Shown in pieces: positions 7,601-64,000 of a DNA stretch of 64,000 nucleotides; position 1 is the stretch's first letter; each line of letters begins with the position of its first letter. Both the position numbers and the translations under genes were made by a program. The stretch covers positions 3,328,001 through 3,392,000 of the forward strand of contig CH464491.1 in assembly GCA_000002445.1 (NCBI GenBank), in the 5' to 3' direction. A model generated the notes under the pieces. It was not told the origin of the DNA and ran no database searches. It saw only the letters and a program-made list of their open reading frames with translations. Source of the DNA: Trypanosoma brucei (lineage: Eukaryota).

Positions 7601-7694
7601 GCAGCCGTCTTGGGGATTGCTTTTGAGCGTAATCAAAATTGGAGGTGCACATTTCTTTGAACCTGTGTCTTTTCCTTTAACTGTTAATAGCAAG

Positions 7695-35386: not shown

Positions 35387-35978
35387 CGTTAGCACTGTCC
35401 TTGTTTCTCTTCTCTTGATGTGTTTTCAATATACGACAGAGCAGCTAATGGAATGAATGAAGAGAAAGCTTGCACACAAGAGGCATATTGCTTTCTAAGT
35501 GCTGTTATCACATTTGACAATCCTGTCTAAAAAACATTACTGTTTCTGTTTTTTGCTTCTTTAAAGTTAATTGTTCGTAGAGGTTCTAGGTAAGGTCGAT
35601 AGTTGCTCTTGGGGAAAGCGCGTTGGCAACAGCAACGAAAAAAAAAACTCATGTTGTCCACTTTACCGAGTGGAAAGGTCGCAACAGATCCATGCAACAA
35701 ACTGTAGCATTAACTCACATTAGTGGAGAGCCGCAGCGCTTCATGCACTGGGGAGAAGGCAAACTAGTGTAGCTGCCCCAACATCTACTGAATATGTATT
35801 ACTGTTTGCTTTACCACTGTGAAGTCTGACCATCTTCCAGCAGATATCAGTAGACCGTAATGCCATGAAGACATCGACTAGCACACGTTTCGTTGGAACC
35901 TCATCAGCGCGACACTCATGGAGGAGGAACAAGCCAACTCGCGCAAACTCAAAGAATAGGGACCTGTGAAGAGTTGGC

Positions 35979-45500: not shown

Positions 45501-48500
45501 AAGTAGAACCACCTGGAACGCTTGAGCTGGTAAACCGCAACGGTTGAACAACCTAGCAGACCGCATAGCGTGCGACAAAAACCTCTCTTCCTCATCTCCT
45601 TCATCCAATGCTGTCCCTTGCACGGCACGCTTACCCTTTGGCATGTCCTCAGTCAAAGCTGACACGGACTCGTCAACACCTCCCTTCACTTTGCTCGCGC
45701 GGCGGGAAACCTTCCCAGACGTATCTAATGTGGCTTTCTCTTGGAGCACCTGGCATTGCTCCAACTGCAGTAGTGACATCTTCTCCAGGAAAAAATACAG
45801 CTTCGCTGTGAAAGGAACGCAAAACTGCATGATACGGGCCCTCAGCCACCGTGCAATCTGTCGTCTCCACACCCAGGCAAACCCACGGGTGAGTTGTCGC
45901 AATGTTTCCTTCTCAACAGGTGACCATTCTCCCTCCGCTGTATTACTAACAATATGTTGTCCCAGTTCATTTATAGGCGCAACCTGAGCCCTCGCATCCT
46001 CGGCCGCCAACTCTTTTGCACTCTCCAGTGCGGTCGGGTTATCAGTCGTCGATGCATCGACTGAGGAAGTACCCTTCAACTGTATGTGCAAGTACCCTTC
46101 TCGGCGGAGCCAGCTCCTCATGCTTTCAATCAATCCATTCTGGTGCTCGTTAATAAGGGTGCGGATATCCTTAAGGCGCTTTAATGTATCCAGTGCCAGC
46201 CGTCGCGCATTCACGACATCACCTTGCTCCATCAGGCTCTCTACGACATATGCAGCTGTCCGCGCGTACATGGGATGATCGCACACCTGATGGAGCCGTT
46301 CGATGGCTAGCTGCGCTGATCGACTGTGCACTGCTCGGACCACCTCCAACAACCATGGCGGAATACCTTCTAATACCACGCAGTTGGGCGTCGCAGCCAA
46401 CACCGAGTCGAGTGCTTTGTCGCATGAAGAGAAGACTTTTCTCAAGGAGCCGGCAACCTGAGCAGGCACTTTGAAAAGAATCTCCCCCAGGAGCTCCACA
46501 TATTCGATGGGTACGCAGTCGTCGACGATGTCGTCTAACATTACGTACGAGCTTCCGGGAAATGTCGAAACACCGGCAGCGCACTCAGCAGGGGCGCCGG
46601 TTGTCTGGGATGGTGCCGCAGAGCCCACCCTGGAGCCGCGGCGAAGGCGAGATGAAGTCCCGCGCGAGGCGTTTTCGCCTCGGTTGCCTGGAGCTGGTGT
46701 CCCCTGCGTACCTTCGGGAGCGCTTCCCTTTGAATTCACGACGCGCTGCACTCTGCGCGCACTGCAGCGAATTCGGTGTCTGTGACGGCGCTGCCGCAAG
46801 TTAGGAGCGTTGTATACATCGTTCCATACACGCTCAAATGCCTGAAGAAGAAGCTCATACCACCCAGCGATGGTCGAAGGAAGGTCAGATAAATCCTCAG
46901 AACAGCGCTCGGGCGACACTACCGGGGCCCCTGCAGGGGTTGTTGCTCCCGCCTGTTGCCCCACAATTTGGTCCTTGCTGTTAGTATCAGCATGCAAATT
47001 GGCGCAAGGGGCAGAACAGGGCATAGAAGCCATCCTTCGTATCGTAAGGAGTAATGCACCAAGAACGCGAACCGCCAACAACTGCACGTCCGGATCATCA
47101 GACGTGGAGGTGGGATGTAACAACAGGATCTTACACAATGTGCCGAGCGGCCGCAGCACAACAGGACAGTAATTGTCGTCCACAAGTGTTGGAAGGAGGG
47201 CGTTGAACAACTCGAAGGCACAGCGCATCATACGTCCATAATCTTTAACGCGGAACGCAAGCTCCATGACAAACCGAATTCGGTATGCGCAGCGCATATA
47301 TACAACTTGAGTCTCCTGCAACTTATAACGTTTTGGGAAAGGCACCTCGACCAACATGCTGTGCTCAGTAAAAGGCATGAGCCCTGTGGTACAAAAGTTT
47401 TTGTAAGCGTGGCCTTTCATATCGCCCACAGACATCCAAAGAATAGCCGAAACAAGCGCTCGCAGTTGCAATGGTGATGACGCAGACAAGATTTCCTCGC
47501 TCGGTTGGAACTCTAGGGGGCTTATGATGGTGTTACCATCCCCAGTTGGTGAGGGAGAGCGACGCGAACCCTCCGCGGTGACGGTAGCTGCTTCCCTAGT
47601 AATTGTACCGACGCTCCGTGACGCCGCTGAGTCTCGGAGACATGGCGCATTGCTCTTATCACACAAAAAAGCTGCGTGCAGTACATCCCTTGACTTCTCC
47701 ATCCACTCCGTAAATCCTAGCTTCCCACATATGGTCACGGCGTAGCACCAAATCATGAGAGGAGAGTACGCACTCCCCTCGCGCGGGGCCAGTTTGTCAA
47801 CCCCAAAACTCCCATTTGATCCACTCCACTCGGGACGACACAGCAGATGAAAAGCCTCTTCTAGCATTTCCCGCTGTACCTTCCGCCGGGGTTGATGGGA
47901 TGCCAAACACAACAAGACAAGCGCTAGTAGTAATGCGTCCGAACTCTCCCGCGCCCACGCAACAAGCCGTTTCCTCTCTCGCTCATTGGTATCCAAAAAC
48001 TGTGGTTCCTCCTGGATAAGTGACTTTAGAATATTCTTCTCCTTCAGCGTAACGGCGCCATAAATATTAGCCTTCGCCTGGCGCTCCTTAATTCGTGTGA
48101 CGTCCTCTCTGTGCCTTTCAATAGCTGCAAAAGATTGTTGATACAAACTAGCACACCAACACAGTTCGATTCGACAACGCATTAAATCAGTCCTTATATC
48201 ACGCACCTCCTGCTCACCACTAGCCACCAACGCAGACACATGCGACCCTAAACCTAATCTAGCACCAGTATCAACCCCTGCAACCTGTGCGGAGTTATGC
48301 ATATCCAACAGATGCGTCGCACTGGAAAGCCACCTCAACGCAATATTAATGGCAGAAATCCCTAGCATGGCGTGGTGATGCTTTTTGCGAAATACGCAGG
48401 CGGAGTCCACACCCTTTGGGAGCCCATCTACCGATCCACCAACCTCCCCTCCTTGATGCGATGTCGGTGATGCCGATCCCGCAGCTGCCTCCCCTGAAAC

Positions 48501-51491
48501 CGCATTTCCATCATTGTCGTCACCGGCCCCTTGGGCACCAACAACTTTCTCTTTAACTACTTCTACCTCCGCCACAACCTCTTTTGCATATCTCAGAACA
48601 AGTTCGCTAAAGTCGACAGCGCTTGTCAGCCCACTACTCGCCTTCACATCCAAGTATGTGCATATGATCTCGTGATACAACTCCACCGGGTCCTTATCCA
48701 GTTGGTGCCCCGATGCGACACTCACCCCATTGCCATCACGCAAGAGGGGCGCTGACCTTGTCACAACTGGAAGCTTGCTGGGGGAGTAGCGGGCCATACG
48801 GTGGAGTAAAAACTCCGCGCCACGCTCCAGCAGTTGCTGACAGACTACCCGCACGGACTCCGACACCGCTGTGGTTGAACTCAGCAGAGGTGGGTACAAA
48901 ACAGAGGATGACGTCATGGAGGGAGAGGCAGAGGACAAGCCGTCAACGGGGGCACCGAAGGCCACAGCGATAGCACTGTCGTTATTATTACTGTTGGATA
49001 CACTAATCAACAGAGGCCCTTTACACTGCTCCAACAGCCTCCTGAGATGCTCAGCGACGGGAAAGATACTGTAAATATCTTCCAAAGAATGTCGATCAGC
49101 ACCACTTTCAGCTGCTCCACACCCGCGCACCCTTCGCATGTGCCGAAGGATGTGTAAAGAAGCGGTGAATACATTTGCTAAAGCCCACACGGGTGATCGC
49201 GAGTGCCGTCCACCCACCTTTCCGCTTTCAGGCGATGGTGAAACTGGGCGCGAAGCCAACCCCTCATCACTTTCACCGAGTTTCCGCCACAATAGACTAG
49301 TGGAGCAGATGCAAAGCCGCCCATACAAATCGACATCCGGGGCATCATACAACACGCAATGAAGCAACAATGCTGTAGCGATGCTCTCTTCCTCCGTTTC
49401 CGTTAAGCGGGAGATCGATCGTCCATCACGCTGCTCCTCGTTTCCATGAAAGAGGAAAGGACCTGGTGGCTTTGGGTACCCAATTTCACAGAGCAGGGCC
49501 TCCAGGGTAATACTCCCAAGCAGTACATCGTCTTCGACAACACTGAACTCTTGGGGCACAACATTCCCTTCACGGCCCTTCCGACGGGGCGCAGCACTCT
49601 TCTTCCCCGTAGACTTTGTGGCGGGCGCATCCACAGCGAACGCATTATTTGCGGCTTTAGTCGTTTCAGAGCTATCAAAACCCTCTAGCCGGCATCGTTC
49701 CGCGATTGTAGGGTTTTCCTTCAGATAATTGCGCACCGCGTGACGCGCCAAAAATTCGAGTGCCGAAGTCGCCCACAAGTGCAACTTACCCATGAATGTG
49801 CTCGGATCAAATGCAGCATCACCAAGTTGATCGGTTCTACTTCTTGGTCGTGTCGTAGGGGGTATTGAAGTGATGGCCACAGCGAGCAAGAAACGCATTA
49901 GAGGGCCCCGAGCTCTCTCAACCAACCTTGTCTTTTTCAACGCATCCATGTTGCGGCGATCCCTTGATTTTTGCTGTTGCTTGGCCTTATTAAGGCGATA
50001 CCCTGCTCCTCCAACGAGTGCGGCAGACACCTCCGAGGCAGTTGGCAACTCCACTCTCATCAGTGTCTGCCATGCCTTGTCAAGCACATCAAGTCCACTG
50101 CAGGGAAGGTCACCGTTATACGCTTCAGAACCATCACGAACAGTAGAATCTCCAACACTTGGCACCTGTTTGGTGCCATGCGCCCCATCTCCAGCTCCAC
50201 CGACACTCGGTTGTGGAGGTGAATACCTTTCCGCGCCTGATCCATTCACGTACCAAGTGTACCTCAACACAGTGAGGTGGACATTGTACAAAGCCACGAG
50301 CAGAATCTCCCTGGTTTCCTCTGAAGGCCCAACCCCGTCTACAAACTCAAGTTCCACAAGTTCCCGTACCTTCACCAGCGTGCGCTGCGCTTGGTGCAAC
50401 GCTTCCTCATACATCCCTTGCCGTTCATAACAATTGCATAAAAGCTCATATAGTCGCACGCGCCAAAGCAAGTAGCGCGAAGTTGAGAGCTTGAGTGTCC
50501 CCGACTCACATACCTCGATGCAGTACGCAGTAGAACGTGCAATAACCGGCATTACCACCGCAGTGCTCCCACTTGCGAAACGCATCAAATGCAGGCACAT
50601 TTCATATATCATGACGGTGGCGTTGAACAGGACAAAGTAGTTCAAATCCGCCTCCACGTCACAAGCGGAAACAAGCCTATGGACTACATTCTCTAAACAC
50701 GACGTCGCTTGCTGTAAAACACCGGGGCGGCACCGGAACGAAGAGGCGCCGGTGAAAAGCCGAAAAAACTGGCATGCTTGAGTAAGCAACTCGTACTGCA
50801 CAACGACGCGCCAAGCGTCAGTAAACTTCGCCCGCCTCTCTTGATCAACCTCCTTTGAGACAAACCGCAGACTGCGCCTGCCGGCCGTGGGTGTCTCTCC
50901 CTCAGTTTGCAAAAGGCGACCAAACGCTGTGGTTTTCCTGGCGCTTTTTGATATTGCTGAGACTGTGCCCGCTACGGCGCAAGCATCGCGCAGCGTTGTA
51001 TTCACATCCTTCTCGATAGACTTGAGACAAATATTCATCGCATCATCGTATAAACCACGCGACACAAGGAAGTACGCAGCGAAGATGCACTCCTCCGCGT
51101 ACTGGACAGTAACGTCGAACGCTGGGTGACGGTCACGTCGGTCGGCATGCAGACCTGCCACAATAAAAGACTTTCTGCCTTCCCCCTTTGCAGCCGGAGA
51201 CGTCTGGCTTGCTGCTTGCGGCGACAGGCTGGGTGGCCCACCTCCATACCTTCTGCTGGCGTTACTCCTGTTAAAAGAAGCAATGCTACAAGCCGCTCGA
51301 CTACGTATACTCCCCGTGGGGCTGCAAAAGGCACCGCCCATGGCGATATTGCGCTTTCTACTGTCAAGAAGTTGCTCAAGAAAAACACGATTCCGCCGTA
51401 TATCGGACGATTGCGTCGCAGCGTCCTGTTGAAGCGCAAAGTACCGCAGTTTCTGGTGGAAACTAATGTGGTATTCATCGTTCGCTGTCAT
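39600..51491 (-). CDS. giant hypothetical protein (3963 aa)
   Basis: The ORF is 11.9 kb and uninterrupted, starting at the verified ATG at 51489-51491; the track start is a GTG. Composition is normal and non-repetitive, with scattered helical-repeat-like segments. I recognise no domain. Confidence 0.6.
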   Translation of the reverse strand: MTANDEYHISFHQKLRYFALQQDAATQSSDIRRNRVFLEQLLDSRKRNIAMGGAFCSPTGSIRSRAACSIASFNRSNASRRYGGGPPSLSPQAASQTSPAAKGEGRKSFIVAGLHADRRDRHPAFDVTVQYAEECIFAAYFLVSRGLYDDAMNICLKSIEKDVNTTLRDACAVAGTVSAISKSARKTTAFGRLLQTEGETPTAGRRSLRFVSKEVDQERRAKFTDAWRVVVQYELLTQACQFFRLFTGASSFRCRPGVLQQATSCLENVVHRLVSACDVEADLNYFVLFNATVMIYEMCLHLMRFASGSTAVVMPVIARSTAYCIEVCESGTLKLSTSRYLLWRVRLYELLCNCYERQGMYEEALHQAQRTLVKVRELVELEFVDGVGPSEETREILLVALYNVHLTVLRYTWYVNGSGAERYSPPQPSVGGAGDGAHGTKQVPSVGDSTVRDGSEAYNGDLPCSGLDVLDKAWQTLMRVELPTASEVSAALVGGAGYRLNKAKQQQKSRDRRNMDALKKTRLVERARGPLMRFLLAVAITSIPPTTRPRSRTDQLGDAAFDPSTFMGKLHLWATSALEFLARHAVRNYLKENPTIAERCRLEGFDSSETTKAANNAFAVDAPATKSTGKKSAAPRRKGREGNVVPQEFSVVEDDVLLGSITLEALLCEIGYPKPPGPFLFHGNEEQRDGRSISRLTETEEESIATALLLHCVLYDAPDVDLYGRLCICSTSLLWRKLGESDEGLASRPVSPSPESGKVGGRHSRSPVWALANVFTASLHILRHMRRVRGCGAAESGADRHSLEDIYSIFPVAEHLRRLLEQCKGPLLISVSNSNNNDSAIAVAFGAPVDGLSSASPSMTSSSVLYPPLLSSTTAVSESVRVVCQQLLERGAEFLLHRMARYSPSKLPVVTRSAPLLRDGNGVSVASGHQLDKDPVELYHEIICTYLDVKASSGLTSAVDFSELVLRYAKEVVAEVEVVKEKVVGAQGAGDDNDGNAVSGEAAAGSASPTSHQGGEVGGSVDGLPKGVDSACVFRKKHHHAMLGISAINIALRWLSSATHLLDMHNSAQVAGVDTGARLGLGSHVSALVASGEQEVRDIRTDLMRCRIELCWCASLYQQSFAAIERHREDVTRIKERQAKANIYGAVTLKEKNILKSLIQEEPQFLDTNERERKRLVAWARESSDALLLALVLLCLASHQPRRKVQREMLEEAFHLLCRPEWSGSNGSFGVDKLAPREGSAYSPLMIWCYAVTICGKLGFTEWMEKSRDVLHAAFLCDKSNAPCLRDSAASRSVGTITREAATVTAEGSRRSPSPTGDGNTIISPLEFQPSEEILSASSPLQLRALVSAILWMSVGDMKGHAYKNFCTTGLMPFTEHSMLVEVPFPKRYKLQETQVVYMRCAYRIRFVMELAFRVKDYGRMMRCAFELFNALLPTLVDDNYCPVVLRPLGTLCKILLLHPTSTSDDPDVQLLAVRVLGALLLTIRRMASMPCSAPCANLHADTNSKDQIVGQQAGATTPAGAPVVSPERCSEDLSDLPSTIAGWYELLLQAFERVWNDVYNAPNLRQRRHRHRIRCSARRVQRVVNSKGSAPEGTQGTPAPGNRGENASRGTSSRLRRGSRVGSAAPSQTTGAPAECAAGVSTFPGSSYVMLDDIVDDCVPIEYVELLGEILFKVPAQVAGSLRKVFSSCDKALDSVLAATPNCVVLEGIPPWLLEVVRAVHSRSAQLAIERLHQVCDHPMYARTAAYVVESLMEQGDVVNARRLALDTLKRLKDIRTLINEHQNGLIESMRSWLRREGYLHIQLKGTSSVDASTTDNPTALESAKELAAEDARAQVAPINELGQHIVSNTAEGEWSPVEKETLRQLTRGFAWVWRRQIARWLRARIMQFCVPFTAKLYFFLEKMSLLQLEQCQVLQEKATLDTSGKVSRRASKVKGGVDESVSALTEDMPKGKRAVQGTALDEGDEEERFLSHAMRSARLFNRCGLPAQAFQVVLLAVDGIRTFVCDDPADVQPLNDAQQTLAEDAGGRGSPSCGGTYSSDAADGFIDPRLYRFVGTLSATEQRASVMRTGPRSREKLVALGPYICPLAQTMQRTLLLLWEGYVDYRRDLGIVQPNAVKVRRDVLLDEQLPFQGRVPSLFSLFSPAGQYEEAYLEHARDVEQRKRGHSLLYQTHEVCARESFERTRIQWQSSLQLSSLMEMWVDVIPDVGYFLRELEVDCSLLEQEAEERKCAYDTAVVQRQQWEARVSKKRRKKTEEAGTVRCITKPISFEDPNGMELAAKRLGYTIPMGTAIDKLVFLLKCAQFSCQLASLQIAEEVQKLTSGSFSRHLLPFVLNVQCMIGEPIAKETVDKLLEVYRDESRQKSLSRNARWTWRRYTKTEAYSRAMQRLGRTLLPSWGTQGDSKMSVLSMPNASFNFSADECSLVSDVLVETSRPRATVRADDSVVCGTNPPNADDTNGASRPTSLHDVTGSYDNLISYLRQRRLFGPLAEELYELGRIYILHRQRDEAERCWLDSVDAALGVPESLRNSTAVDTWSEFQAASVGCPRILLAILSLTSLAMYTYREQQKRAVDACLLSARVLERLFEQSSGSGLPQCLRDFCGFALEDIIVLPHLREPLTTLMPQIIHHLLFLGWELLQFKFPVYSAMVACLAEYLARTYTRHVPLTVEIRLLQAKAAAYSGNFRASMGILRDVCQGKRVPCVALESFDLCASGSEALKTTKGLKGADTGAQSRRQAEPAAEAPNNQALQQQQHQEESSQSGLYNDTELPTSPGNVACIQVFITQCFTSPGSDDRPAADAAGASVGQTVSSLMSGASGLPEPVAAYYGKRLSQRVELTLAECLVVLGGKEAAYVWGSLGGQSQPPASGTTTGADRRAMRSRGSQRPMNLTYNNSACREALNAAEQILQVILARLQKVQQQRQGERQQHPRQSGNSTSTVGDGNAFVLRGRKSVPRDSAPPSSRLPDGGNAKRWREVEDTYTRCTSERLLSRIYTVRGESMKALGLLKGLVRSFENGGSFVCNIPHVPSFLWTVGTHNFWCEVYELMTQNHVRLLEYSVAQKVVDHALALCEQCGDSYSARVFSLYRATISMRTGTASDAEETLNGLLDVSRSLVCDSRMDLFHPWTILALEALRREKQCKESQKGSTSSIDLLEGAVLNLQEYSQVHSLLPLTFCFNERKQDDSREVTKRENRREVLWKQLAPLPWSTDAVYVHRAVNTLAEEHIRVGLLDQAEHLLQDVILSVASRYDTAAHPTALIESHFMLARLLCLRNPSLITARQEENPLQQQRKGGETMGGAPVTVMAHEMSSEEEMIASLEPYRQNPVRLLMSVVKQVVSVGIHDYNILRVALLLLSALFSHAGRAFCIVAANCAVLAKLVADMKFHVFSGTSVFSLYGDDAISLGTDVVFAESVTAYIHYQQRNVGNVMEKEGPGWDNAAGGGGSLPPSGPSHPRTRDDRERAAQRNNVSLPAVVSAFAALHRERSLDCLLPPQESLDLELALQHVRSFLQTRTAPLSCSYLWHSEGALESILKQQASSATRPGGAFRTQRTGASTATVIGDDNASPAGFLPPVIIDALPSLLSPQTLQQLHVPRANTVICNTFQYESASADPVAYNENMSIRAASPRCGQGANGGGAACKQAEPVSTLKFVLVVSPANDPAATQPPSVAEKPYHPTKKTARATNKGMTHSLAASTGEGPRWVDAGSIFNMWNSTQCVVFDCPVAEMRQLQAQAAHTLLLMQSPAPSLPLAKAPPGVEGAVDEEDIAAGAALTQQLNEVLSVLFTKLAPPTTGRKAMRAPMTVEGLLSGASNLNATPFGNNSGAVGASGNHGNPWGGRAAIVGAGATDKVASGTAPGYKEKGADDGCDESDEVSPVDEAKSKLVADFIQMIVASIIPRAVVDDALMERNVQMLMPRCAVTVDVVRFLMAVTSNDGHGMSSFNPGLHDWFSRIAAFGSGQVVR

Positions 51492-52617
51492 TGTATAACT
51501 CCTTCGCACTACTTCTGCCTGTTGTTGCCGTGCCCGCCGGCCGTTGTTGCTCTCTGATTTTCTCCTTCAGTGTCTTTCTTTTACACCACTTCCTTTGAAA
51601 CAGAGGGATATATGAGAGTGATTCGAAGGAAAAAAACAGAGGTAAGACAAATGTCATTGAAAGTTAGTGAAGGTTAAAGGAGTGAAAACAAAAAAACTAT
51701 TGATTCTAACCGCCTGGCGTCGAGGAACCAGCACGTAATGGCTAGCAGTCGTTACAAAAAAAAAAAGAAAGACAAAAAACACCTGTGGGAGTTAGTTTGT
51801 GTTGGGTCCTCCACATGTCCAACCGGTCATCAATCGGCTTTATTTTAACGGCGGGTTCAAGGGTAACAAAAAGGGAGGCAAGTGGGAGGTTTACCTCAAC
51901 TAGCCAAGTTTCTGCGGTTTACTGCTGCTGCCATGTAAAGTTGTGTCGTTCCGGAGGTCCGTTACCTTTGTTGACCGCTGACGCTCTAATATTACATTAC
52001 TGTTACGGCAACTAACGGTCACTCACATGCAACACGCGGCAATAAGGCACGACGCCAACCGAGGAAAACAGAGACACACACATATTCATTTGTCATCTTA
52101 CCCATTTATAATACCCGCCTCGGTGCCTGCTGTCCCAAGTATAAACACACGAGAGGGGCACACAGGAAGATGCTCCGTGGGCGGGCGGTGATGGTAATTT
52201 AAAAAAAAAAAGTAACAACAACAATAATAATATGGACTGAAGGTGAATAACAACAACTGTAGAAAGTTAAAATATATACACATATGTGCATATAATGGTG
52301 CAGACAGATAAAATAATGACGATAAATGCGGTATGGGGAAACGATAAGAAGACCAAAAAGGAAGAACACCCATGCCAATTAACCATATAAAAATTTTTCC
52401 CCAAACACCCTCCCCTTATGTCCCTTTACCACCCCTCCTCGTCGCTTTTTGTTTTTTTTGCCATGCGTCTTGTCGCTGTTAGCCCCCACACAAACACACA
52501 CGCCAGCTCCTTCACCCTCTTTCGCGTTTCGCCTCCCTTGACTATTACCCTTCTACCTCATTTTCTGTGAAACACATCCTACCTTAGCTCCACAAGTTTC
52601 AGCTATTCCTTACCTAC

Positions 52618-58309: not shown

Positions 58310-60517
58310 CTAAACAATGCCTGCAATGCGCTTGTAGAGCCGGGGAAGCCACCACCACATTCCAACTAGAAGCTGCAATGCCAAAGCCACAGAGCTAAAA
58401 ACTAACACAACAAACATCACTGCCCACCCGCGTCTGTCCGCGGTACCGTCACCAGAGTCATTGCCGTTACCACGGACAGCTGCTAGCCACGCGGTGAGCC
58501 CCAGTATTAGTGCTACGCAACTCGAACAAACGGCAGTCACTAGAAGCACAGGAAGCACAGTTGTGAACAGAGCAGCGGTGGGTCTGACAGTGGCCTTCCC
58601 AAAGTTGTCCCGAACCACAGTGCGGCTCAGAAAGACAGCTCCCAATGACCGTAGCAAACCCCCCACCGCGATGGCGAATGAAAACGCACAGACAGCGGCA
58701 AGGGTGGCTGTGAGTTGTTTACCGTCAAAAAAAAATGCGACTATTAGTACCATAGCAGCAGTGGCAGGCCCGAGTTCCACAAAACGTACAAATGGGCCCA
58801 TACTTGGCACAAGACACAGCAACAACAGTGCTAACGTTGACAGGAGCAACACCACAACAGGACTGATCGCAATACCGTTAGGCCAATTTCCGCTGCCATC
58901 GACAACTGGGATGTCAGTCGCTTTGAAGTGGAGACTATCTAACACCGGCAGCGTCACTAACTCAGAGTCCACAGTAAGAAGAGATACCACTGCGACAAGG
59001 CACCCACAAGCCACACTGCGGATAAAGAACGACGGATCAAGACGCCCCAAACACGAAAGGAAGTTTGTGACATAATGAGATTTACCGCACGAACATGGTC
59101 CAGGCTGCAACATGGATGGAGGTAGTAGTAAGCAAATGCCGATAGCAAGGGAAAATGACACCAATGCGAGAACGGTATGTATGATAGCAGTATAACCCGC
59201 AGCAGCAGTAGTGGCAAATGCCGGAAGAACCCCAAAAGCCACCAGACGAGACATCAACCATGCTAGGCATACCGAGAGCGCTAGAAACGGAGGTCCAGCA
59301 ACATATCCCACATCAGCACAGGTAAACAGCAACAAAGATGCAAATGAACCAACGAAACTGGCTGCCTGAACAAGTTCTCGTACAACAAAAGAGGTAGTGA
59401 CATTCAAAAGGACACCATAAAGCAGACGGAAGTCGTCCACTACCAACATGGCTGTTGAAACGAGTAACACGACGTGAGGAACTTCCCACACACCACGAAA
59501 ACAAAACACAACTAACAGCGAAGAAACTGCGATTGCATGAAACGACATGAGCTTCAGCATCATGCACTTCCCACCTAAAAGATTATCCACAAACGGATTC
59601 GTCTTAAAAACATTGTATGATTCATGGTGTAACATTAGCATGCTGATAATAAAAACGGCAAACACATGCACCACTGCACGCCTCAATCCAAATGAAGAAT
59701 TCGATTCAGAAACCAAAGCTTCGGGGACAAAAACATCGCTTGGACTACCCTGAATCAAATGAACCTCACTGCCACAAAACAAGCACCTAAACACATCACC
59801 ATCAACGAAGACGGGAAATTCCTCACTACAGTAAGAATCCCATCTGCCAGCAGCGACAAGTGGTTCGTCAACAAAACGTTCTGCAGTAACGCTATGCAAT
59901 CCATCGAGAGTACCGTAGGTCCTTTCCAATATCGAACTATCACCGTTCCCACCGAAAGGCCCTCTTCCTGCACCCAACAGCGGTTCTTGATCACCACAGT
60001 CAGCAACACAGCGGTCTCCTGTCGCCACTAATTTAGAAGAACGTAGACCACTAACAGACCTACGCACATCAGTTACCGCACTGACAACTCCAACACACCC
60101 ACAATGAAAACTATCAACCTTTTCCTTAAGCGGCACATCTCGATCCACCCCAACACAAACAGATGGCTGCATCGACAAAACTCCGTATTCAATCTCTTTA
60201 CTACCGCTTGAAAATGTACCCGCAGTAGTGAAGCGGGACATACTATGCGATGAAGAGCGTGCTGAAAATATTGTTGCGCCCCTTCGGAAATCCCTTCCAG
60301 TAGAGTGCCGTGCTAAATACTCCTCATTTTCAATCACCGCTCTACTGGTAGTTTCAGTCTTCACAAATAAATTCACACAAGAAACAGACACAACGTCATC
60401 ATCGCTATCCATCAAAATATCTCGAACGTGCTCCACAAGACTCGCACCGTCACTTGCAGCAAGGCCGTGGTCCGACCCATCTACCTCTTGGCTGCCGAAC
60501 CACGTTTTACTCTCCAT
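58310..60517 (-). CDS. polytopic membrane protein (735 aa)
   Basis: The ATG at 60515-60517 was verified; the track start at 60520 is a GTG. The N-terminal ~280 aa are hydrophilic. They are followed by at least 10 hydrophobic helix-length segments, for example AVVHVFAVFIISMLML, LMSFHAIAVSSLLVVFCF and VLVFSSVALALQLLVGMWWW. Confidence 0.55.
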   Translation of the reverse strand: MESKTWFGSQEVDGSDHGLAASDGASLVEHVRDILMDSDDDVVSVSCVNLFVKTETTSRAVIENEEYLARHSTGRDFRRGATIFSARSSSHSMSRFTTAGTFSSGSKEIEYGVLSMQPSVCVGVDRDVPLKEKVDSFHCGCVGVVSAVTDVRRSVSGLRSSKLVATGDRCVADCGDQEPLLGAGRGPFGGNGDSSILERTYGTLDGLHSVTAERFVDEPLVAAGRWDSYCSEEFPVFVDGDVFRCLFCGSEVHLIQGSPSDVFVPEALVSESNSSFGLRRAVVHVFAVFIISMLMLHHESYNVFKTNPFVDNLLGGKCMMLKLMSFHAIAVSSLLVVFCFRGVWEVPHVVLLVSTAMLVVDDFRLLYGVLLNVTTSFVVRELVQAASFVGSFASLLLFTCADVGYVAGPPFLALSVCLAWLMSRLVAFGVLPAFATTAAAGYTAIIHTVLALVSFSLAIGICLLLPPSMLQPGPCSCGKSHYVTNFLSCLGRLDPSFFIRSVACGCLVAVVSLLTVDSELVTLPVLDSLHFKATDIPVVDGSGNWPNGIAISPVVVLLLSTLALLLLCLVPSMGPFVRFVELGPATAAMVLIVAFFFDGKQLTATLAAVCAFSFAIAVGGLLRSLGAVFLSRTVVRDNFGKATVRPTAALFTTVLPVLLVTAVCSSCVALILGLTAWLAAVRGNGNDSGDGTADRRGWAVMFVVLVFSSVALALQLLVGMWWWLPRLYKRIAGIV

Positions 60518-61193
60518 CACCTCACCGGAAATTCAACCACTGATGTTGATATTGACTCGGAGAGGTCAGCACACAGCTATTACCGGTGCCTTCTTATCCT
60601 TTCCTATCCAGAACCCAAAACGCCCCCACCTCTTTTTCACTAATCCTTGCTCGTTACTATGACTACGCTGCACAAAGAAATACCGTTTGCAAGCCTGACA
60701 AATGGGGAAAAGGGCTACAGAGTGGAGCACTACAGTGGAAAATACGTGTGCGGTATAAGCACACAGCGACAGGAAGACACAACAGCCTCGGTCAGTTCGT
60801 TACAAACCCCAGAAGCTCAGAGATGCGGTACCTTCATACCCAACAGGTATGCACAAGGCAGCAACATACAGAAACGAGTTGAAGAAAGGAAAAAAGGAAA
60901 AAAGGAAAAAAGTAAGCAAACAATTACATACTTGGGAAGTGCTATGCCTCTTCAAAATACAGAAACGTGCTCGGCGCACCACCAATATCATATTAGACAA
61001 GAATGCCGTGCAGCGCCGGCCGCAACGCTCCAAATCACTTTAACGTCCACACAACGAAATACCGGAATGACGCTGAAAATGGTAGTAGCGCTTGGAGCGA
61101 AGCGCCCACCTACGCTATTTCCCGAAAACAAGCACAAATACAGGCAGTAATCTGCAATAGCTCAATGAAGGCGGTAAAGCACATGAGATACAG

Positions 61194-64000
61194 CTAACGG
61201 AGTTCGTAACGGCCAAACATAATCGATCCAACAGCAAGGACGAGCATCCCCACCGCAGAGGCTGAGAACGCAGCAGCCTCCTTCCACTCGGATATACCTC
61301 CCTCCTGCACGTACGCTGCAGCAACAGCGGGAGAGCAGCGCTGCAGCGCAGCAAGCATTGCCTCATGCCGATTCTGGCGCTGCTTGTGCATGTCGTCCAA
61401 AAGTTTCCGCACGTTGAATAACATTAAACGCACCCTGTCTTGCATCTGTTGAAGAAGGTCATTCGGGGCGGAAACTCCACTCGACAGGACCCGTGACTCA
61501 CCCGAACCTTCGCAGTGCTCGTGGCGCGGTGACACCATCAAACAATCCAGCTCCTCCCCGACCGCGTCGATTCGGGCTTGCAGTAAACGAAGATTCTCAT
61601 CTTGCCGTTTCCATGTCCCCTCAGCCCTCATTACACGGCGCTTATAATCACTTGCAGCAGCCTGCAGCTCTGTGCGCGCCCCATAGTTATCCCCTGAGTC
61701 GCTGTGCCTCTCAGCTAGTTGCATCACACGCTTGAAATGCCGAGCCTCCTTTATGCACGGAGCGATCTGTGAAACAACCTTGCCACAGCGCTGAATATCC
61801 CTTTCGATTGCCTTAATCTTCCTCAGTAGCAGCACGATTGGAGCACCCAGCGATTGCAGAGCAGAGATGTTATAGCTTTCCGCATTCTCCCCGGCACCCT
61901 CATCCGAGTTCGTTGTATGACAAAATTCACCATCCACCGCACGTTTGCTCCGTCTCCTCCGCTGGGAGGGTCGGTCATGAAGAACAGTGCCAAGTTCAGA
62001 ATGTCCGTGAACAGCACAGTCAAACTCAAAATAATCTTCCGCCAGTCCGCTCTCAGCACCCACGACAGATGTATCATAGGAACTATCAAGGGCATCCTCC
62101 AAACTACATGACCCCTCACCTTCTGAAAAATTAGCAAGCTTTGCCTGCGCAAAATCAACGTCAACAGAACAAGATTTTTCGTTCGGGGAACATGTGAGCT
62201 TTACCACATTTTTCGAAATGTCCCTCCCTGCATTTATTTCATTCAACTGCTTCATTAGTACAGCGTTTTCTTCCTTGAGTTTTCCAAGTTCAGTATGAAA
62301 AGGGTCACTAAACTTGGCACCACCCTCCATTTCATTAAGGTTTTCAGGCGCCTCTTTCGAATAATGCTCCTCAGCAAGTTGCTTTTTCAGTTCCTTCTCC
62401 AGTGCTGCCTTAGAACCAGCCACATCACTCAGTTGCTTCCTCAGTTCCCTCAGTTCCTTCTCGAGTGATGATTTGGAACCAGCCACATCACTCAGTTGCT
62501 TCCTCAGTTCCTTCAGTTCCTTCTCGAGTGATGATTTGGAATCAGCCACATCACTCAGTTGCTTCCTCAGTTCCCTCAGTTCCTTCTCGAGTGATGATTT
62601 GGAATCAGCCACATCACTCGGTTGCTTCCTCAGTTCCTTCAGTTCCTTCTCGAGTGATGATTTGGAACCAGCCACATCACTCAGTTGCTTCCTCAGTTCC
62701 TTCAGTTCCTTCTCGAGTGATGATTTGGAATCAGCCACATCACTCGGTTGCTTCCTCAGTTCCTTCAGTTCCTTCTCGAGTGATGATTTGGAACCAGTCA
62801 CATCACTCAGTTGCTTCCTCAGTTCCTTCAGTTCCTTCTCGAGTGATGATTTGGAACCAGTCACATCACTCAGTTGCTTCCTCAGTTCCTTCAGTTCCTT
62901 CTCGAGTGATGATTTGGAACCAGTCACATCACTCAGTTGCTTCTTCAGTTCCTTCAGTTCCTTCTCGAGTGATGATTTGGAACCAGCCACATCACTCAGT
63001 TGCTTCCTCAGTTCCTTCAGTTCCTTCTCGAGTGATGATTTGGAATCAGCCACATCACTCAGTTGCTTCCCCAGTTCCTTCTCGAGTGATGATTTGGAAT
63101 CAGCCACATCACTCAGTTGCTTCCTCAGTTCCTTCAGTTCCTTCTCGAGTGATGATTTGGAACCAGTCACATCACTCAGTTGCTTCCTCAGTTCCTTCAG
63201 TTCCTTCTCGAGTGATGATTTGGAACCAGCCACATCACTCGGTTGCTTCCCCAGTTCCTTCTCGAGTGATGATTTGGAACCAGTCACATCACTCAGTTGC
63301 TTCCTCAGTTCCTTCAGTTCCTTCTCGAGTGATGATTTGGAACCAGTCACATCACTCAGTTGCTTCCCCAGTTCCTTCAGTTCCTTCTCGAGTGATGATT
63401 TGGAACCAGCCACATCACTCAGTTGCTTCCTCAGTTCCTTCAGTTCCTTCTCGAGTGATGATTTGGAATCAGCCACATCACTCAGTTGCTTCCCCAGCTC
63501 CTTCTCGAGTGATGATTTGGAACCAGCCACATCACATAGTTGCTTCCTCAGCTCCTTCAGCTCCTTCTCGAGTGATGATTTGGAACCAGTCACATCACTC
63601 AGTTGCTTCCTCAGTTCCTTCTCCAGTGCTGCCTTAGAACCAGCCACATCACTCAGTTGCTTCCTCAGCTCCTTCAGCTCCTTCTCGAGTGATGATTTGG
63701 AACCAGTCACATCACTCAGTTGCTTCCTCAGTTCCTTCAGTTCCTTCTCCAGTGCTGCCTTAGAACCAGCCACATCACTCAGTTGCTTCCTCAGCTCCTT
63801 CAGCTCCTTCTCGAGTGATGATTTGGAATCAGCCACATCACTCAGTTGCTTCCTCAGCTCCTTCAGCTCCTTCTCGAGTGATGATTTGGAATCAGCCACA
63901 TCACTCGGTTGCTTCTTCAGCTCTCTCTCTATCAATGTATTAGAATCATTCACAGCACCTAGCTGCTTTTTTGTTTCCTTCAGTTCGTTTTCTATTAGAA
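61194..64000 (-). CDS. repetitive coiled-coil protein with 21-aa (63-bp) tandem repeats and a C-terminal hydrophobic tail; 5' end beyond the window
   Basis: The reading frame is open to the window edge, and the track's M at 63953 is a GTG. There are about 25 units of SSLEKELKELRKQLSDV(A/T)(G/D)SK(S/A), some shortened to 17 aa. A unique ~380-aa C-terminal region ends in AVGMLVLAVGSIMFG, which looks like a tail-anchor. Confidence 0.7.
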   Translation of the reverse strand, partial: LIENELKETKKQLGAVNDSNTLIERELKKQPSDVADSKSSLEKELKELRKQLSDVADSKSSLEKELKELRKQLSDVAGSKAALEKELKELRKQLSDVTGSKSSLEKELKELRKQLSDVAGSKAALEKELRKQLSDVTGSKSSLEKELKELRKQLCDVAGSKSSLEKELGKQLSDVADSKSSLEKELKELRKQLSDVAGSKSSLEKELKELGKQLSDVTGSKSSLEKELKELRKQLSDVTGSKSSLEKELGKQPSDVAGSKSSLEKELKELRKQLSDVTGSKSSLEKELKELRKQLSDVADSKSSLEKELGKQLSDVADSKSSLEKELKELRKQLSDVAGSKSSLEKELKELKKQLSDVTGSKSSLEKELKELRKQLSDVTGSKSSLEKELKELRKQLSDVTGSKSSLEKELKELRKQPSDVADSKSSLEKELKELRKQLSDVAGSKSSLEKELKELRKQPSDVADSKSSLEKELRELRKQLSDVADSKSSLEKELKELRKQLSDVAGSKSSLEKELRELRKQLSDVAGSKAALEKELKKQLAEEHYSKEAPENLNEMEGGAKFSDPFHTELGKLKEENAVLMKQLNEINAGRDISKNVVKLTCSPNEKSCSVDVDFAQAKLANFSEGEGSCSLEDALDSSYDTSVVGAESGLAEDYFEFDCAVHGHSELGTVLHDRPSQRRRRSKRAVDGEFCHTTNSDEGAGENAESYNISALQSLGAPIVLLLRKIKAIERDIQRCGKVVSQIAPCIKEARHFKRVMQLAERHSDSGDNYGARTELQAAASDYKRRVMRAEGTWKRQDENLRLLQARIDAVGEELDCLMVSPRHEHCEGSGESRVLSSGVSAPNDLLQQMQDRVRLMLFNVRKLLDDMHKQRQNRHEAMLAALQRCSPAVAAAYVQEGGISEWKEAAAFSASAVGMLVLAVGSIMFGRYELR
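62375..64000 (-). repeat. 63-bp tandem repeat array (coding), with 51-bp unit variants
   Basis: The plus-strand unit is cttcctcagttccttcagttccttctcgagtgatgatttggaaccagccacatcactcagttg, repeated head to tail. Confidence 0.9.

What the first reader, a model, noticed from the sequence alone, without database searches (positions are those of the whole stretch)
61194..64000. Coiled-coil 21-aa repeat protein with sub-variant units and a C-terminal hydrophobic anchor; the gene continues past the window
A 63-bp unit encoding SSLEKELKELRKQLSDV(A/T)(G/D)SK(S/A) is repeated at least 25 times.

The units show a patterned alternation of AGSK, ADSK and TGSK variants, and occasional 51-bp units lacking KELR. 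That pattern suggests ongoing unequal exchange.

The heptad-like spacing with a unique C-terminus ending in a hydrophobic helix suggests a membrane-tethered fibrous protein.

Tandem-repeat proteins of this kind are immunodominant antigens in trypanosomatids. Repeat number is probably collapsed in the assembly.
Basis: partly seen in the sequence, partly recalled or inferred. Interest (0 to 1): 0.5.

Follow-up and report, generated by a model that had tools for sequence, protein, structure and literature searches.

The report
Tail-anchored coiled-coil repeat protein gene
This is the last 2.8 kb of a Trypanosoma brucei-group gene for a long rod-shaped repeat protein held in a membrane by its tail; it is a lineage-specific duplicate of a protein that elsewhere carries a dynein-type microtubule-binding head, so the family probably ties an organelle (most likely the mitochondrion) to the microtubule skeleton.

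Summary
An ORF is open from 64000 down to a stop at 61194-61196 and encodes at least 934 aa.

- **Layout:** 24 tandem units (20 of 63 bp and 4 of 54 bp, not 51 bp), in heptad phase; a disordered linker; a conserved helical domain of about 190 aa; one C-terminal TM helix; then GRYELR.
- **Source:** T. brucei-group chromosome 11, beside oligopeptidase B and CARP2.
- **Relatives:** found only in Trypanosoma. All keep the C-terminal domain, the TM helix and the (K/G)RYEL end. Repeats are species-specific, with periods of 14, 21, 28 or 42 aa.
- **N-terminus in the family:** orthologues and the T. brucei sister copy start with a dynein stalk/MTBD hairpin (Pfam PF12777 above threshold; PDB profile E 1e-16; AF2 plus Foldseek).
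- **This copy:** in T. brucei a tandem duplication made a second, chimeric copy that starts with the 5' end of the neighbouring membrane-protein gene. The window gene is that copy (99.1% versus 96.8% identity).
- **Localisation:** published hyperLOPIT data place the family in 'microtubule structures 2' and 'mitochondrion - OM'.

Best reading: an MTBD-less paralogue in a family of tail-anchored coiled-coil tethers between an organelle and microtubules. Antigenicity and repeat collapse remain untested.

The parts
61194..64000 (-). 3' part of the protein-coding gene (at least 934 codons). The stop codon is at 61194-61196. The 5' end lies beyond the window, about 1 kb further by comparison with GCA_003543875.1.
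   Evidence: Translation without internal stops. All neighbouring genes from 10.5 kb to 64 kb are on the same strand. Orthologous proteins P0001, P0003, P0002 and P0004.
63885..63998 (-). Two degenerate repeat units: LIENELKETKKQLGAVNDSNT / LIERELKKQPSDVADSK.
   Evidence: The same unit types occur in the chimeric copy B of L004 (aa 341-379 and 464-502). They do not occur in the N-terminal part of T. b. gambiense copy A.
62409..63884 (-). 24 regular tandem units (20 of 63 bp and 4 of 54 bp) encoding SSLEKELKELRKQLSDV[A/T][G/D]SK. This is a heptad-phased coiled-coil stalk of about 490 aa, roughly 73 nm if it forms a continuous coiled coil.
   Evidence: TRF, unit parsing, heptad analysis, and an AF2 helix over the last units.
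62334..62408 (-). Closing degenerate unit AALEKELKKQLAEEHYSKEAPENLN.
61869..62333 (-). Poorly conserved linker. It has a short helix (ELGKLKEENAVLMKQLNEIN) followed by an acidic, Ser-rich segment predicted to be disordered.
   Evidence: AF2 pLDDT is below 40 for residues 88-202 of the model. Conservation against T. congolense is low. Translation.
61302..61868 (-). Conserved juxtamembrane helical domain of about 190 aa, with motifs RCxKVVSQIAPCIKE, QLAERHS and ALQRCSPxVAxAY.
   Evidence: 54% identity to T. congolense over 220 aa. The profile search finds it only in Trypanosoma. AF2 pLDDT is 77-91, with helices H210-241, H244-259, H263-313 and H334-379. No specific PDB fold match.
61215..61277 (-). 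Single C-terminal transmembrane helix AAAFSASAVGMLVLAVGSIMF (the tail anchor).
   Evidence: Kyte-Doolittle 19-residue maximum of 2.0; the next best stretch anywhere in the protein is 1.24. The A/G/S-rich hydrophobic character is conserved in T. congolense, T. vivax, T. theileri and T. conorhini. Translation.
61194..61214 (-). Six-residue tail GRYELR plus the stop codon. This is the copy-B version of the family's (K/G)RYEL end.
   Evidence: Copy A of L004 ends ...STVYKRYELR, whereas copy B, T. b. gambiense P0003 and the window end ...SIMFGRYELR.

Best explanation
**Shown.** The feature is the 3' two-thirds or so of a real gene on the minus strand of T. brucei-group chromosome 11. The encoded protein has three parts:
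- A long stalk of 21-aa units, each three heptads. One core position is always L/L/V, the second is L/L/K, and the flanking positions are E/K-rich. Four 18-aa units each shift the heptad register by three residues.
- A flexible linker followed by a conserved helical domain of about 190 aa.
- A tail anchor: one moderately hydrophobic TM helix six residues from the C-terminus.

The protein belongs to a Trypanosoma-only family sitting between a prefoldin gene and a multipass membrane-protein gene, upstream of CARP2 and OPB. The ancestral, single-copy form has four parts in order: an N-terminal dynein stalk/MTBD hairpin, a species-specific tandem-repeat coiled coil whose period is always a multiple of 7 aa, the conserved C-terminal domain, and the TM helix with a KRYEL end.

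In the T. brucei group a tandem segmental duplication created a second copy, B. In the one gap-free assembly, B's reading frame starts with the first ~105 codons of the neighbouring membrane-protein gene. It then runs into degenerate and regular repeats, the C-terminal domain and the anchor. The window gene is copy B.

**Inferred.**
- The tail inserts post-translationally into an organelle membrane, most likely the mitochondrial outer membrane, with the rod in the cytosol.
- The family acts as a passive tether or spacer between that membrane and the subpellicular microtubules, and the repeat number sets the reach.
- Copy B lacks the microtubule-binding head. It probably pairs through the near-identical repeats and C-terminal domain with copy A or with itself, changing how many heads each tether carries.
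For: **Gene reality and anatomy:**

**Organism and locus:**
- P0001 (T. equiperdum) is 99% identical; P0003 (T. b. gambiense) is in the same cluster.
- Neighbours are OPB, DUF4464/CARP2, an RNR-R2 array and a CFAP54-like gene. OPB is Tb927.11.12850 and CARP2 is Tb927.11.12860 in the papers found.

**Family restricted to Trypanosoma:** an exhaustive profile search of 1.84 billion representatives gave significant full-domain hits only in T. congolense, T. brucei-group, T. vivax, T. theileri and T. conorhini.

**Conserved TM helix and (K/G)RYEL end:**

**N-terminal dynein stalk/MTBD in orthologues and in T. b. gambiense copy A:**
- Pfam PF12777 scores 27-36.5 bits against a gathering score of 24 in five species.
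- The profile search against PDB sequences hits dynein stalk/MTBD constructs: 5AYH at 1.4e-16, then 3WUQ, 3ERR and 3J1T.
- The AF2 model has pLDDT 87.9. The top 46 Foldseek PDB hits are all dynein, with MTBD-only TM-scores of 0.73-0.78.

**Ancestral single copy and synteny:** the order prefoldin, MTBD part, gap, C-terminal part, membrane protein, DUF4464, OPB is seen in T. theileri and T. conorhini. In T. b. gambiense, prefoldin is followed by the copy A N-terminal part.

**Duplication and chimera:**
- L004 1-2160 is a second copy of the C-terminal region, the intergenic region and the 5' end of the membrane gene.
- The 1098-aa copy B starts MESKTWFG..., identical to the membrane protein's start.
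- Window 62347-60183 is 99.08% identical to the B region and 96.77% to the A region.

**Repeat periods of 14, 21, 28 and 42 aa:**

**Localisation, from published hyperLOPIT supplements (PMC10361982):**
- Orthogroup OG0000278 contains Tb927.11.12870, Tb927.11.12880, Tb11.v5.0365 and Tb11.v5.0366.
- Tb927.11.12880 is assigned to 'microtubule structures 2' at 0.999 and 0.995.
- Tb11.v5.0366 and Tb11.v5.0365 are assigned to 'mitochondrion - OM' at 0.97 and 0.70.
- Tb927.11.12880 is listed as 'POMP17, Mito' in PMC6686227.
- TM-helix GRAVY of 1.4-2.0 with a net-positive short tail fits what PMC12316301 describes for trypanosome outer-membrane tail-anchored proteins.
Against: - **N-terminus unseen.** The N-terminus of the window gene lies outside the window. 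'Copy B, no MTBD' rests on comparison with one gap-free assembly and one T. b. gambiense contig.
- **Membrane identity not settled.** Peikert 2017 does not flag Tb927.11.12880 as part of its mitochondrial reference set and gives it no POMP name. The POMP17 label appears in only one table, which carries other doubtful ID/name pairs. The hyperLOPIT TAGM-MAP calls for the Tb11.v5 copies are 'unknown'. The predictor used there gave 0 TM domains for both Tb11.v5 copies. FACT 2010 saw no C-terminal TM in Tb11.52.0008.
- **Gene ID unresolved.** Which TREU927 ID corresponds to copy B could not be settled.
- **Possible helix breaks.** Three units carry Pro at a core position, and each unit contains G-S-K-S-S. 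The stalk may be segmented rather than one continuous coiled coil.
- **No direct tests.** Oligomeric state, topology, microtubule binding and the tether function were not tested here.
Confidence: 0.6

Rival explanations
1. It is a tail-anchored coiled-coil tether of another endomembrane (ER, Golgi or nuclear envelope), working like a golgin rather than as a mitochondrial outer-membrane protein.
For: - Tb11.52.0008 (= Tb927.11.12880) was the best BLAST hit of human golgin-84/GolgA5 in T. brucei.
- A single-iteration TAGM-MAP run gave 'endoplasmic reticulum' at 0.77 for Tb11.v5.0366.
- Tb927.11.12880 is absent from the mitochondrial reference set of Peikert 2017.
- The window copy's TM helix is the most hydrophobic in the family (GRAVY 1.99) and its tail carries only +1.
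Against: - No golgin, GRIP or GRAB domain was found, only generic coiled-coil hits.
- The GolgA5 hit is explained by coiled-coil composition alone.
- TAGM-MCMC gives 'mitochondrion - OM' at 0.97 and 0.70.
- The family's TM helices are A/G/S-rich with a basic KRYEL tail.
- No hyperLOPIT call places it in the Golgi.
Confidence: 0.15
2. It is a purely cytoskeletal coiled-coil protein. The C-terminal hydrophobic helix would be buried in a protein assembly rather than inserted in a membrane.
For: - hyperLOPIT assigns 'microtubule structures 2' at 0.999 and 0.995 for Tb927.11.12880.
- The predictor used in that study gave 0 TM domains.
- AF2 confidence for the TM helix is low, about 45.
Against: - A 21-residue stretch with no charged or strongly polar residue, always 6 residues from the C-terminus and always followed by a basic motif, is conserved across species that share only 25-54% identity elsewhere.
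- This is the signature of a tail anchor.
- Bridging proteins such as TAC components also split between cytoskeletal and mitochondrial classes in the same dataset.
Confidence: 0.12
3. Copy B is a non-functional by-product of a segmental duplication, or of misassembly, and is drifting without a role of its own.
For: - It arose by fusing the 5' end of another gene to the interior of copy A.
- Its tail has lost the conserved Lys and Tyr (KRYEL has become GRYEL).
- Repeat numbers differ widely between assemblies.
- Four assemblies are broken at this locus.
Against: - The frame is intact over 934 codons here and 1098 codons in L004.
- The same copy-B-specific sequences are present in T. b. gambiense, in the genome of GCA_003543875.1 and in the window.
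- TREU927 has two annotated paralogues, each detected with its own unique peptides in proteomics.
Confidence: 0.08
4. Its main significance is as an immunodominant tandem-repeat B-cell antigen.
For: It is a long, near-perfect, hydrophilic tandem repeat. From general knowledge, such repeats are frequent among kinetoplastid serodiagnostic antigens.
Against: - Nothing was tested here. No paper in the searched library links Tb927.11.12870/12880 or Tb11.52.0008 to serology.
- The protein is intracellular and faces the cytosol.
- The repeat period being a multiple of 7 in every species points to a structural constraint rather than an immunological one.
Confidence: 0.05

Closest known systems
Dynein heavy-chain stalk / microtubule-binding domain (Pfam PF12777; PDB 5AYH, 3ERR, 6RZB)
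   Same: The family's ancestral N-terminus is an antiparallel coiled-coil hairpin with a small globular MTBD at its tip. This is seen in T. congolense, T. cruzi, T. theileri, T. conorhini and T. b. gambiense copy A. It is recognised by sequence (E 1e-16) and by predicted fold.
   Different: There are no AAA+ modules, linker or tail. The hairpin is fused to a repeat coiled coil and a tail anchor, so it can only bind microtubules, not move along them. In the window copy (B) this head is probably replaced by ~105 residues from the neighbouring membrane protein.
Tail-anchored coiled-coil tethers such as golgin-84 (GOLGA5), giantin and CASP
   Same: A long cytosolic coiled-coil rod ending in a single C-terminal TM helix with a very short lumenal tail. 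Tb11.52.0008 was the best BLAST hit of human GolgA5 in T. brucei.
   Different: There is no homology beyond coiled-coil composition. The juxtamembrane domain is different and conserved within the family. No Golgi assignment was made in spatial proteomics; the assignments were microtubule structures and mitochondrial OM.
Organelle-to-cytoskeleton tethers: Toxoplasma LMF1-Fis1 (PMC7018656, listed) and fission-yeast Mmb1 (own knowledge)
   Same: The proposed job is the same: holding a single mitochondrion against a cortical microtubule or pellicle scaffold, without a motor.
   Different: The sequences are unrelated. LMF1 has no membrane anchor of its own and needs Fis1. Here the anchor and, in copy A, the microtubule binder would sit in one polypeptide. 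The function is inferred, not shown.
T. brucei TAC protein p197 (own knowledge)
   Same: A trypanosome-specific filament protein whose central part is a long array of near-identical tandem repeats. It links a microtubule-based structure to the mitochondrial outer membrane. The repeats collapse in assemblies.
   Different: p197 has ~175-aa repeats, no tail anchor and no dynein-type MTBD, and sits only at the basal body-kinetoplast axis. No sequence similarity was detected.
Public gene models in orthogroup OG0000278: Tb927.11.12870 / Tb927.11.12880 (= Tb11.52.0008, Q382P4), TCIL3000_11_13290, T. b. gambiense CBH18741.1, TEOVI_000455800
   Same: These are the same gene family at the same locus. 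The window C-terminus is 98-99% identical to the T. b. gambiense and T. equiperdum models.
   Different: All are annotated 'hypothetical/conserved protein'. Most are truncated or split by assembly gaps. None is annotated with the MTBD-plus-tail-anchor architecture or the A/B duplication. The exact TREU927 ID of copy B is unresolved.

Membership tests
Tail-anchored (TA) membrane proteins | A single TM helix within ~30 residues of the C-terminus, with no other TM segment. | tested here: met
   The only hydrophobic stretch (Kyte-Doolittle 19-residue mean 2.0) is aa 908-928 of 934, followed by 6 residues. The next best stretch scores 1.24. It is conserved in 5 species.
Tail-anchored (TA) membrane proteins | No N-terminal signal peptide; post-translational insertion with the N-terminus in the cytosol. 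| not testable with these tools
   The N-terminus is outside the window. The L004 copy B N-terminus (MESKTWFGSQEVDGSDHG...) is hydrophilic, and hyperLOPIT annotation gives 'No signal peptide' for both Tb11.v5 copies. Insertion and topology need experiments.
Two-stranded alpha-helical coiled coil | Heptad repeat with hydrophobic a/d positions and charged flanking positions over a long stretch. | tested here: met
   Over ten consecutive 21-aa units, one heptad position is 100% L/L/V and the position +4 is L/L/K. The other positions are S/E/K/D/Q. Pfam gives only coiled-coil families such as Filament and Myosin_tail. AF2 predicts helices at pLDDT 74-80.
Two-stranded alpha-helical coiled coil | Oligomeric state and continuity of the rod. 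| not testable with these tools
   Three units have Pro at a core position. Four 18-aa units shift the register by 3. Every unit has a G/D-S-K-S-S segment. Whether the rod is continuous or segmented is open.
Trypanosoma MTBD / coiled-coil / TA family (OG0000278) | Conserved ~190-aa juxtamembrane helical domain, TM helix and (K/G)RYEL C-terminal end. | tested here: met
   Profile hits score 1e-122 to 2e-7 and occur only in Trypanosoma. Alignment.
Trypanosoma MTBD / coiled-coil / TA family (OG0000278) | Position between prefoldin and the multipass membrane-protein gene, upstream of CARP2 (DUF4464) and OPB. | tested here: met
   The window order is target, membrane ORF, DUF4464, OPB. The same order holds in T. 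conorhini, T. theileri and T. b. gambiense. The prefoldin side lies outside the window.
Trypanosoma MTBD / coiled-coil / TA family (OG0000278) | Central tandem repeats with a period that is a multiple of 7 aa. | tested here: met
   Periods are 21 aa here, 28 in T. congolense, 42 in T. cruzi and T. conorhini, and 14 in T. theileri.
Trypanosoma MTBD / coiled-coil / TA family (OG0000278) | N-terminal dynein stalk/MTBD hairpin (PF12777). | tested here: inconclusive
   The N-terminus is outside the window. The hairpin is present in T. b. gambiense copy A and four other species. It is absent from the orthologous copy B of L004, to which the window gene is 99.1% identical in its unique 3' part. It is therefore probably absent here.
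Dynein heavy chain | Six AAA+ modules, linker and tail. | tested here: not met
   The full-length T. congolense orthologue is 1076 aa and matches only PF12777. The 'dynein heavy chain, cytosolic, partial' name on the T. conorhini model is an annotation artefact.
Golgins (golgin-84 / giantin type) | Sequence homology to a golgin family, or Golgi localisation. | tested here: not met
   There is no golgin domain in Pfam. hyperLOPIT classes are microtubule structures 2 and mitochondrion - OM, not Golgi.
KASH-domain (LINC complex) proteins | TM helix followed by a ~30-aa lumenal KASH peptide ending in PPPX. | tested here: not met
   Only six residues (GRYELR) follow the TM helix.
POMP set (mitochondrial outer-membrane proteome of T. 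brucei) | Listed in the purified outer-membrane proteome, or experimentally localised to the outer membrane. | tested here: inconclusive
   For: the 'POMP17, Mito' label for Tb927.11.12880 in one table, and TAGM-MCMC 'mitochondrion - OM' at 0.97 and 0.70 for Tb11.v5.0366/0365. Against: no POMP name and no mitochondrial flag in Peikert 2017 or the Msp1 dataset. The original proteome paper is not held.
Kinetoplastid immunodominant tandem-repeat antigens | Seroreactivity of the repeat with infected-host sera. | not tested
   No data were found. It needs peptide ELISA.

The most novel reading that the evidence does not exclude
The family is a motor-less, one-polypeptide tether. A dynein-derived microtubule-binding hairpin sits at one end and a mitochondrial outer-membrane tail anchor at the other. 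Between them lies a repeat coiled coil whose length, free to change in steps of whole heptads by unequal crossing-over, sets the distance between the single mitochondrion and the subpellicular microtubule corset. In T. brucei, a recent chimeric, head-less paralogue (the window gene) co-assembles with the headed copy and tunes how strongly the organelle is pinned.
Probability: 0.3. Interest if true: 0.75.

Novelty: new variant of a known kind. Interest (0 to 1): 0.5.

Why it matters
How the single, cell-long mitochondrion of trypanosomes is held against the microtubule corset and remodelled through the life cycle is not understood at the molecular level. This locus offers a concrete candidate that can be tested by genetics.

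The candidate is a Trypanosoma-specific protein family combining a dynein-type microtubule-binding head, an evolvable repeat spacer and a tail anchor. Published spatial proteomics already place it both with microtubule structures and with the outer mitochondrial membrane.

The dynein stalk/MTBD hairpin occurring outside a motor protein is also an unusual case of domain reuse.

At the genome level the locus shows how a tandem duplication created an in-frame chimeric gene inside a polycistronic unit. It also explains why this gene is split, truncated or misplaced in at least four public trypanosome assemblies.

For the window itself the finding is more modest: a real, intact, already-annotated 'hypothetical' gene whose repeat part was correctly spotted.

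Tried and rejected
- **Repeat segment as protein query.** Nothing scored below 1e-10, probably because of low-complexity filtering. It gave no information.
- **Exact look-up of the 735-aa membrane protein.** No record, so the window's own assembly could not be walked upstream. The CARP2 look-up gave the useful loci instead.
- **Fold search of the C-terminal domain against PDB.** Only generic helical bundles, no hit with E <= 1e-3. A SNARE/syntaxin-like reading was considered and dropped: no Pfam SNARE hit, and syntaxin matches had E > 0.2.
- **AlphaFold DB library.** Not available.
The T. congolense orthologue was used instead.
- **Papers that might settle localisation.** Niemann 2013 and Pyrih 2023 are not held. 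The TrypTag supplements held have no entry for these IDs.
- **My first assumption that Tb927.11.12870 is the multipass membrane protein and Tb927.11.12880 is the window gene.** Not supported. 12870 and 12880 are in one orthogroup, and the 82.855-kDa model has 0 predicted TM domains. The CDS length of ~426 bp implied for Tb927.11.12880 in PMC4022737 conflicts with 123.3 kDa elsewhere and stays unexplained.
- **KASH/LINC and dynein-motor readings.** Rejected; see the membership tests.
- **The antisense 390-aa ORF at 62465-63637 (+).** Rejected as a by-product of the repeat.
- **tRNA scan of the window.** None found.

Full report
**1. The observation**

Tandem Repeats Finder reports an array at 62386-63920 with period 63, 24.9 copies, 90% matches and score 2468. 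The coding strand is the minus strand. The frame window:61194-63998:- gives 934 sense codons with no internal stop and a stop at 61194-61196, and it is still open at the window end.

Parsing gives 24 regular units at 62409-63884.
- Twenty units are 21 aa and read SSLEKELKELRKQLSDV[A/T][G/D]SK.
- Four units are 18 aa (54 bp) and lack one KEL.
- Two degenerate units lie upstream (63885-63998) and one closes the array (62334-62408).
- AGSK, ADSK and TGSK occur 9, 7 and 8 times.
- There are 16 distinct DNA unit types differing at 15 columns. Identical types recur at non-adjacent positions, and small variant haplotypes are shared between separated units. This is the mosaic expected from unequal exchange or gene conversion.
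- Three units carry Leu-to-Pro at a core position. The same variant is present in other strains, so it is real.

**2. The rest of the protein**

After the array comes a poorly conserved linker that AF2 leaves disordered (61869-62333; pLDDT below 40).

Next is a helical domain of about 190 aa that AF2 predicts with pLDDT 77-91 (61302-61868).

The only strongly hydrophobic stretch of the protein follows: AAAFSASAVGMLVLAVGSIMF at 61215-61277. Its Kyte-Doolittle 19-residue mean is 2.0, against 1.24 for the next best stretch. It is followed by just GRYELR and the stop.

In a run of ten 21-aa units, one heptad position is 100% L/L/V and the position four residues on is L/L/K. The other positions are S, E, K, D and Q. 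Pfam gives only coiled-coil-type matches. The array is therefore a heptad-phased coiled-coil stalk of about 490 residues. That is roughly 73 nm if continuous (0.1485 nm rise per residue, a textbook value). The 18-aa units each shift the register by three residues.

**3. Where it comes from**

The unique C-terminus is 99% identical to T. equiperdum TEOVI_000455800. It shares a 90% cluster with T. b. gambiense CBH18741.1, and is 39% identical to a T. congolense protein overall (54% over the conserved 220 aa).

Downstream neighbours on the same strand are:
- a 736-aa multipass membrane ORF with no Pfam hit;
- DUF4464 (CARP2, Tb927.11.12860);
- oligopeptidase B (Tb927.11.12850);
- a CFAP54-like giant protein;
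- an ACBP-domain protein;
- a tandem array of ribonucleotide reductase small-chain genes.

This is T. brucei-group chromosome 11.

**4. The family**

I built a profile of the conserved C-terminal 220 aa and scored it against 1.84 billion representative proteins. Full-domain matches occurred only in Trypanosoma: T. congolense, the T. brucei group, T. vivax, T. theileri and T. conorhini. All end in an A/G/S-rich TM helix followed by (K/G)RYEL or a close variant.

The one full-length model, T. congolense TCIL3000_11_13290 (1076 aa), begins with a domain matching Pfam PF12777, the microtubule-binding stalk of dynein, above the gathering score. The same holds for the N-terminal gene pieces of T. 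theileri, T. conorhini and T. cruzi, and for the T. b. gambiense gene at the syntenic site (27-36.5 bits against 24).

Two further tests agree.
- A profile of these N-termini hits solved dynein stalk/MTBD constructs at E 1e-16 (5AYH, 3WUQ, 3ERR, 3J1T).
- An AF2 model (pLDDT 87.9, pTM 0.70) is an antiparallel hairpin with a small helical knob. Its top 46 Foldseek PDB matches are all dynein stalks or MTBDs. Against MTBD-only structures the TM-score is 0.73-0.78 and the rmsd 2.3-3.5 Å.

There are no AAA+ modules, so this is not a dynein.

The central repeats are species-specific in sequence and period, but the period is always a multiple of seven: 21 aa in T. brucei, 28 in T. congolense, 42 in T. 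cruzi and T. conorhini, and 14 in T. theileri. This argues that rod length and heptad phase are under constraint, not the sequence.

**5. Synteny and duplication**

In T. theileri and T. conorhini the gene order is prefoldin, MTBD part, N gap inside the repeats, C-terminal part, membrane-protein orthologue, DUF4464, OPB. That is one gene, broken by assembly gaps.

At the syntenic site, T. b. gambiense has prefoldin followed by a 1209-aa partial gene. It comprises an MTBD head, ~650 unique residues and at least 25 SSLEKELKELRKQLSDV units, and it runs into a 100-N gap.

The gap-free assembly GCA_003543875.1 (L004) shows two copies.
- Bases 1-2160 hold a first copy of the C-terminal region (ending ...STVYKRYELR), the intergenic region and the first ~334 bp of the membrane-protein gene.
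- That duplicated start codon (MESKTWFG...) then opens a 1098-aa ORF. It runs through a short unique segment, degenerate units, regular units and a second C-terminal region ending ...SIMFGRYELR.
- The intact membrane-protein gene follows.

So a tandem segmental duplication, with one breakpoint inside the ancestral gene (copy A) and the other inside the membrane-protein gene, created an in-frame chimeric copy B.

Three observations identify the window gene as copy B.
- Its unique 3' part plus flank (62347-60183) is 99.08% identical to the B region of L004 and 96.77% to the A region.
- It ends ...SIMFGRYELR.
- Its first residues (LIENELKETKKQLGAVNDSNT...) are a unit type seen in copy B and not in the N-terminal part of T. 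b. gambiense copy A.

By alignment with L004, about 340 codons lie beyond the window. Those codons probably do not include the MTBD. This step is an inference from other genomes.

**6. What is published**

Tb927.11.12880 (= Tb11.52.0008, UniProt Q382P4, 123.3 kDa) and Tb927.11.12870 (82.9 kDa) are 'hypothetical/conserved' proteins. OrthoFinder groups them together with Tb11.v5.0365 and Tb11.v5.0366, three T. congolense genes, two T. vivax genes and one T. cruzi gene.

hyperLOPIT spatial proteomics (PMC10361982 supplements) gives these assignments:
- Tb927.11.12880: 'microtubule structures 2' at 0.999 (single iteration) and 0.995 (33-plex);
- Tb11.v5.0366 and Tb11.v5.0365: TAGM-MCMC 'mitochondrion - OM' at 0.97 and 0.70 in bloodstream forms.

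One table calls Tb927.11.12880 'POMP17, Mito'. Peikert 2017 and the Msp1 dataset give it no POMP name and no mitochondrial flag, and the original outer-membrane proteome paper is not held. I therefore treat that label as weak.

A split between cytoskeletal and outer-membrane classes is what a bridge between the two would give. The same paper notes this behaviour for TAC proteins.

I found no functional study. I could not decide which TREU927 ID is copy B, because masses and pI values fit more than one assignment.

**7. Mechanism**

Shown:
- it is an intact gene;
- it has a heptad-phased repeat stalk;
- it has a conserved juxtamembrane helical domain;
- it has a conserved C-terminal TM helix with a short basic tail;
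- it belongs to a Trypanosoma-only family whose ancestral form carries a dynein-type MTBD hairpin;
- in the window genome it is the duplicated chimeric paralogue.

Inferred:
- The tail anchor inserts into the mitochondrial outer membrane. The TM helix has moderate hydrophobicity (GRAVY 1.4-2.0) and a net-positive tail, as described for trypanosome outer-membrane tail-anchored proteins in PMC12316301. The TAGM-MCMC calls agree.
- The rod projects into the cytosol.
- Copy A binds subpellicular microtubules through its head, making a passive tether whose reach is set by repeat number.
- Copy B, without a head, homo- or hetero-dimerises through the near-identical repeats and C-terminal domain and so modulates the tether.

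Rivals are another target membrane, no membrane insertion at all, a decaying duplicate, and a mainly antigenic role. Each is listed with its evidence.

**8. Verdict**

The antigen and collapse claims remain untested.

The gene itself is already present in public annotations as a hypothetical protein. As far as the searchable literature shows, three things are new: the family architecture (dynein MTBD hairpin, heptad-multiple repeat spacer, tail anchor), the A/B duplication with an in-frame chimera, and the explanation for the fragmented public gene models.

Interest is moderate for the window feature itself. It is higher for the family-level hypothesis, which can be tested directly.

Noticed in passing
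window 27347-35395 (gap at 27798-27897): Tandem array of ribonucleotide reductase small-chain genes on the minus strand: four intact 340-aa copies plus one truncated copy interrupted by a 100-N gap. The window comes from a scaffolded assembly in which tandem arrays are not fully resolved.
   Followed up: partly
window 7617-8957 (+): 446-aa ORF with a Pfam VSG_B domain (E 7.7e-46) at a chromosome-internal site. It lies just before the point (~9-10.5 kb) where plus-strand genes (e.g. TYW3 at 155-1225) meet the long minus-strand gene cluster, i.e. a convergent strand switch.
   Followed up: no
window 58310-60520 (-): 736-aa multipass membrane ORF with no Pfam family. It has an orthologue in T. 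conorhini (26% identity, E 3e-16). In GCA_003543875.1 its first ~105 codons and upstream region are duplicated and provide the start of the chimeric copy B.
   Followed up: partly
window 62465-63637 (+): 390-aa ORF that is only the antisense reading of the repeat array, not a gene.
   Followed up: yes
L002 9676-14157 and L003 6182-6281 (T. b. gambiense FN554974.1): The contig carrying copy B's repeats, its C-terminus and the 5' half of the membrane gene lies between two 100-N gaps at 4.35 Mb. The matching hole is at 3.40 Mb in the syntenic locus. This is a probable scaffolding misplacement in the DAL972 chromosome 11.
   Followed up: partly
L001 2711-3079 (T. equiperdum OVI CZPT02001952.1): Repeat-like DNA next to an N gap is inserted inside the membrane-protein gene, inflating its model to 986 aa. 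The target's model is truncated to 391 aa with a false C-terminus read across another N gap. Both are probable misassemblies.
   Followed up: partly
window 39600-51509 (-): 3969-aa ORF with a CFAP54 N-terminal domain hit (E 2.3e-10), a giant flagellar-type protein between OPB and the ACBP-domain gene.
   Followed up: no
Literature, Tb927.11.12880: PMC4022737 gives read densities that imply a CDS of ~426 bp for Tb927.11.12880, whereas proteomics tables list 123.3 kDa. PMC6686227 labels it POMP17 while other datasets do not. The published identifiers for this locus are inconsistent.
   Followed up: partly
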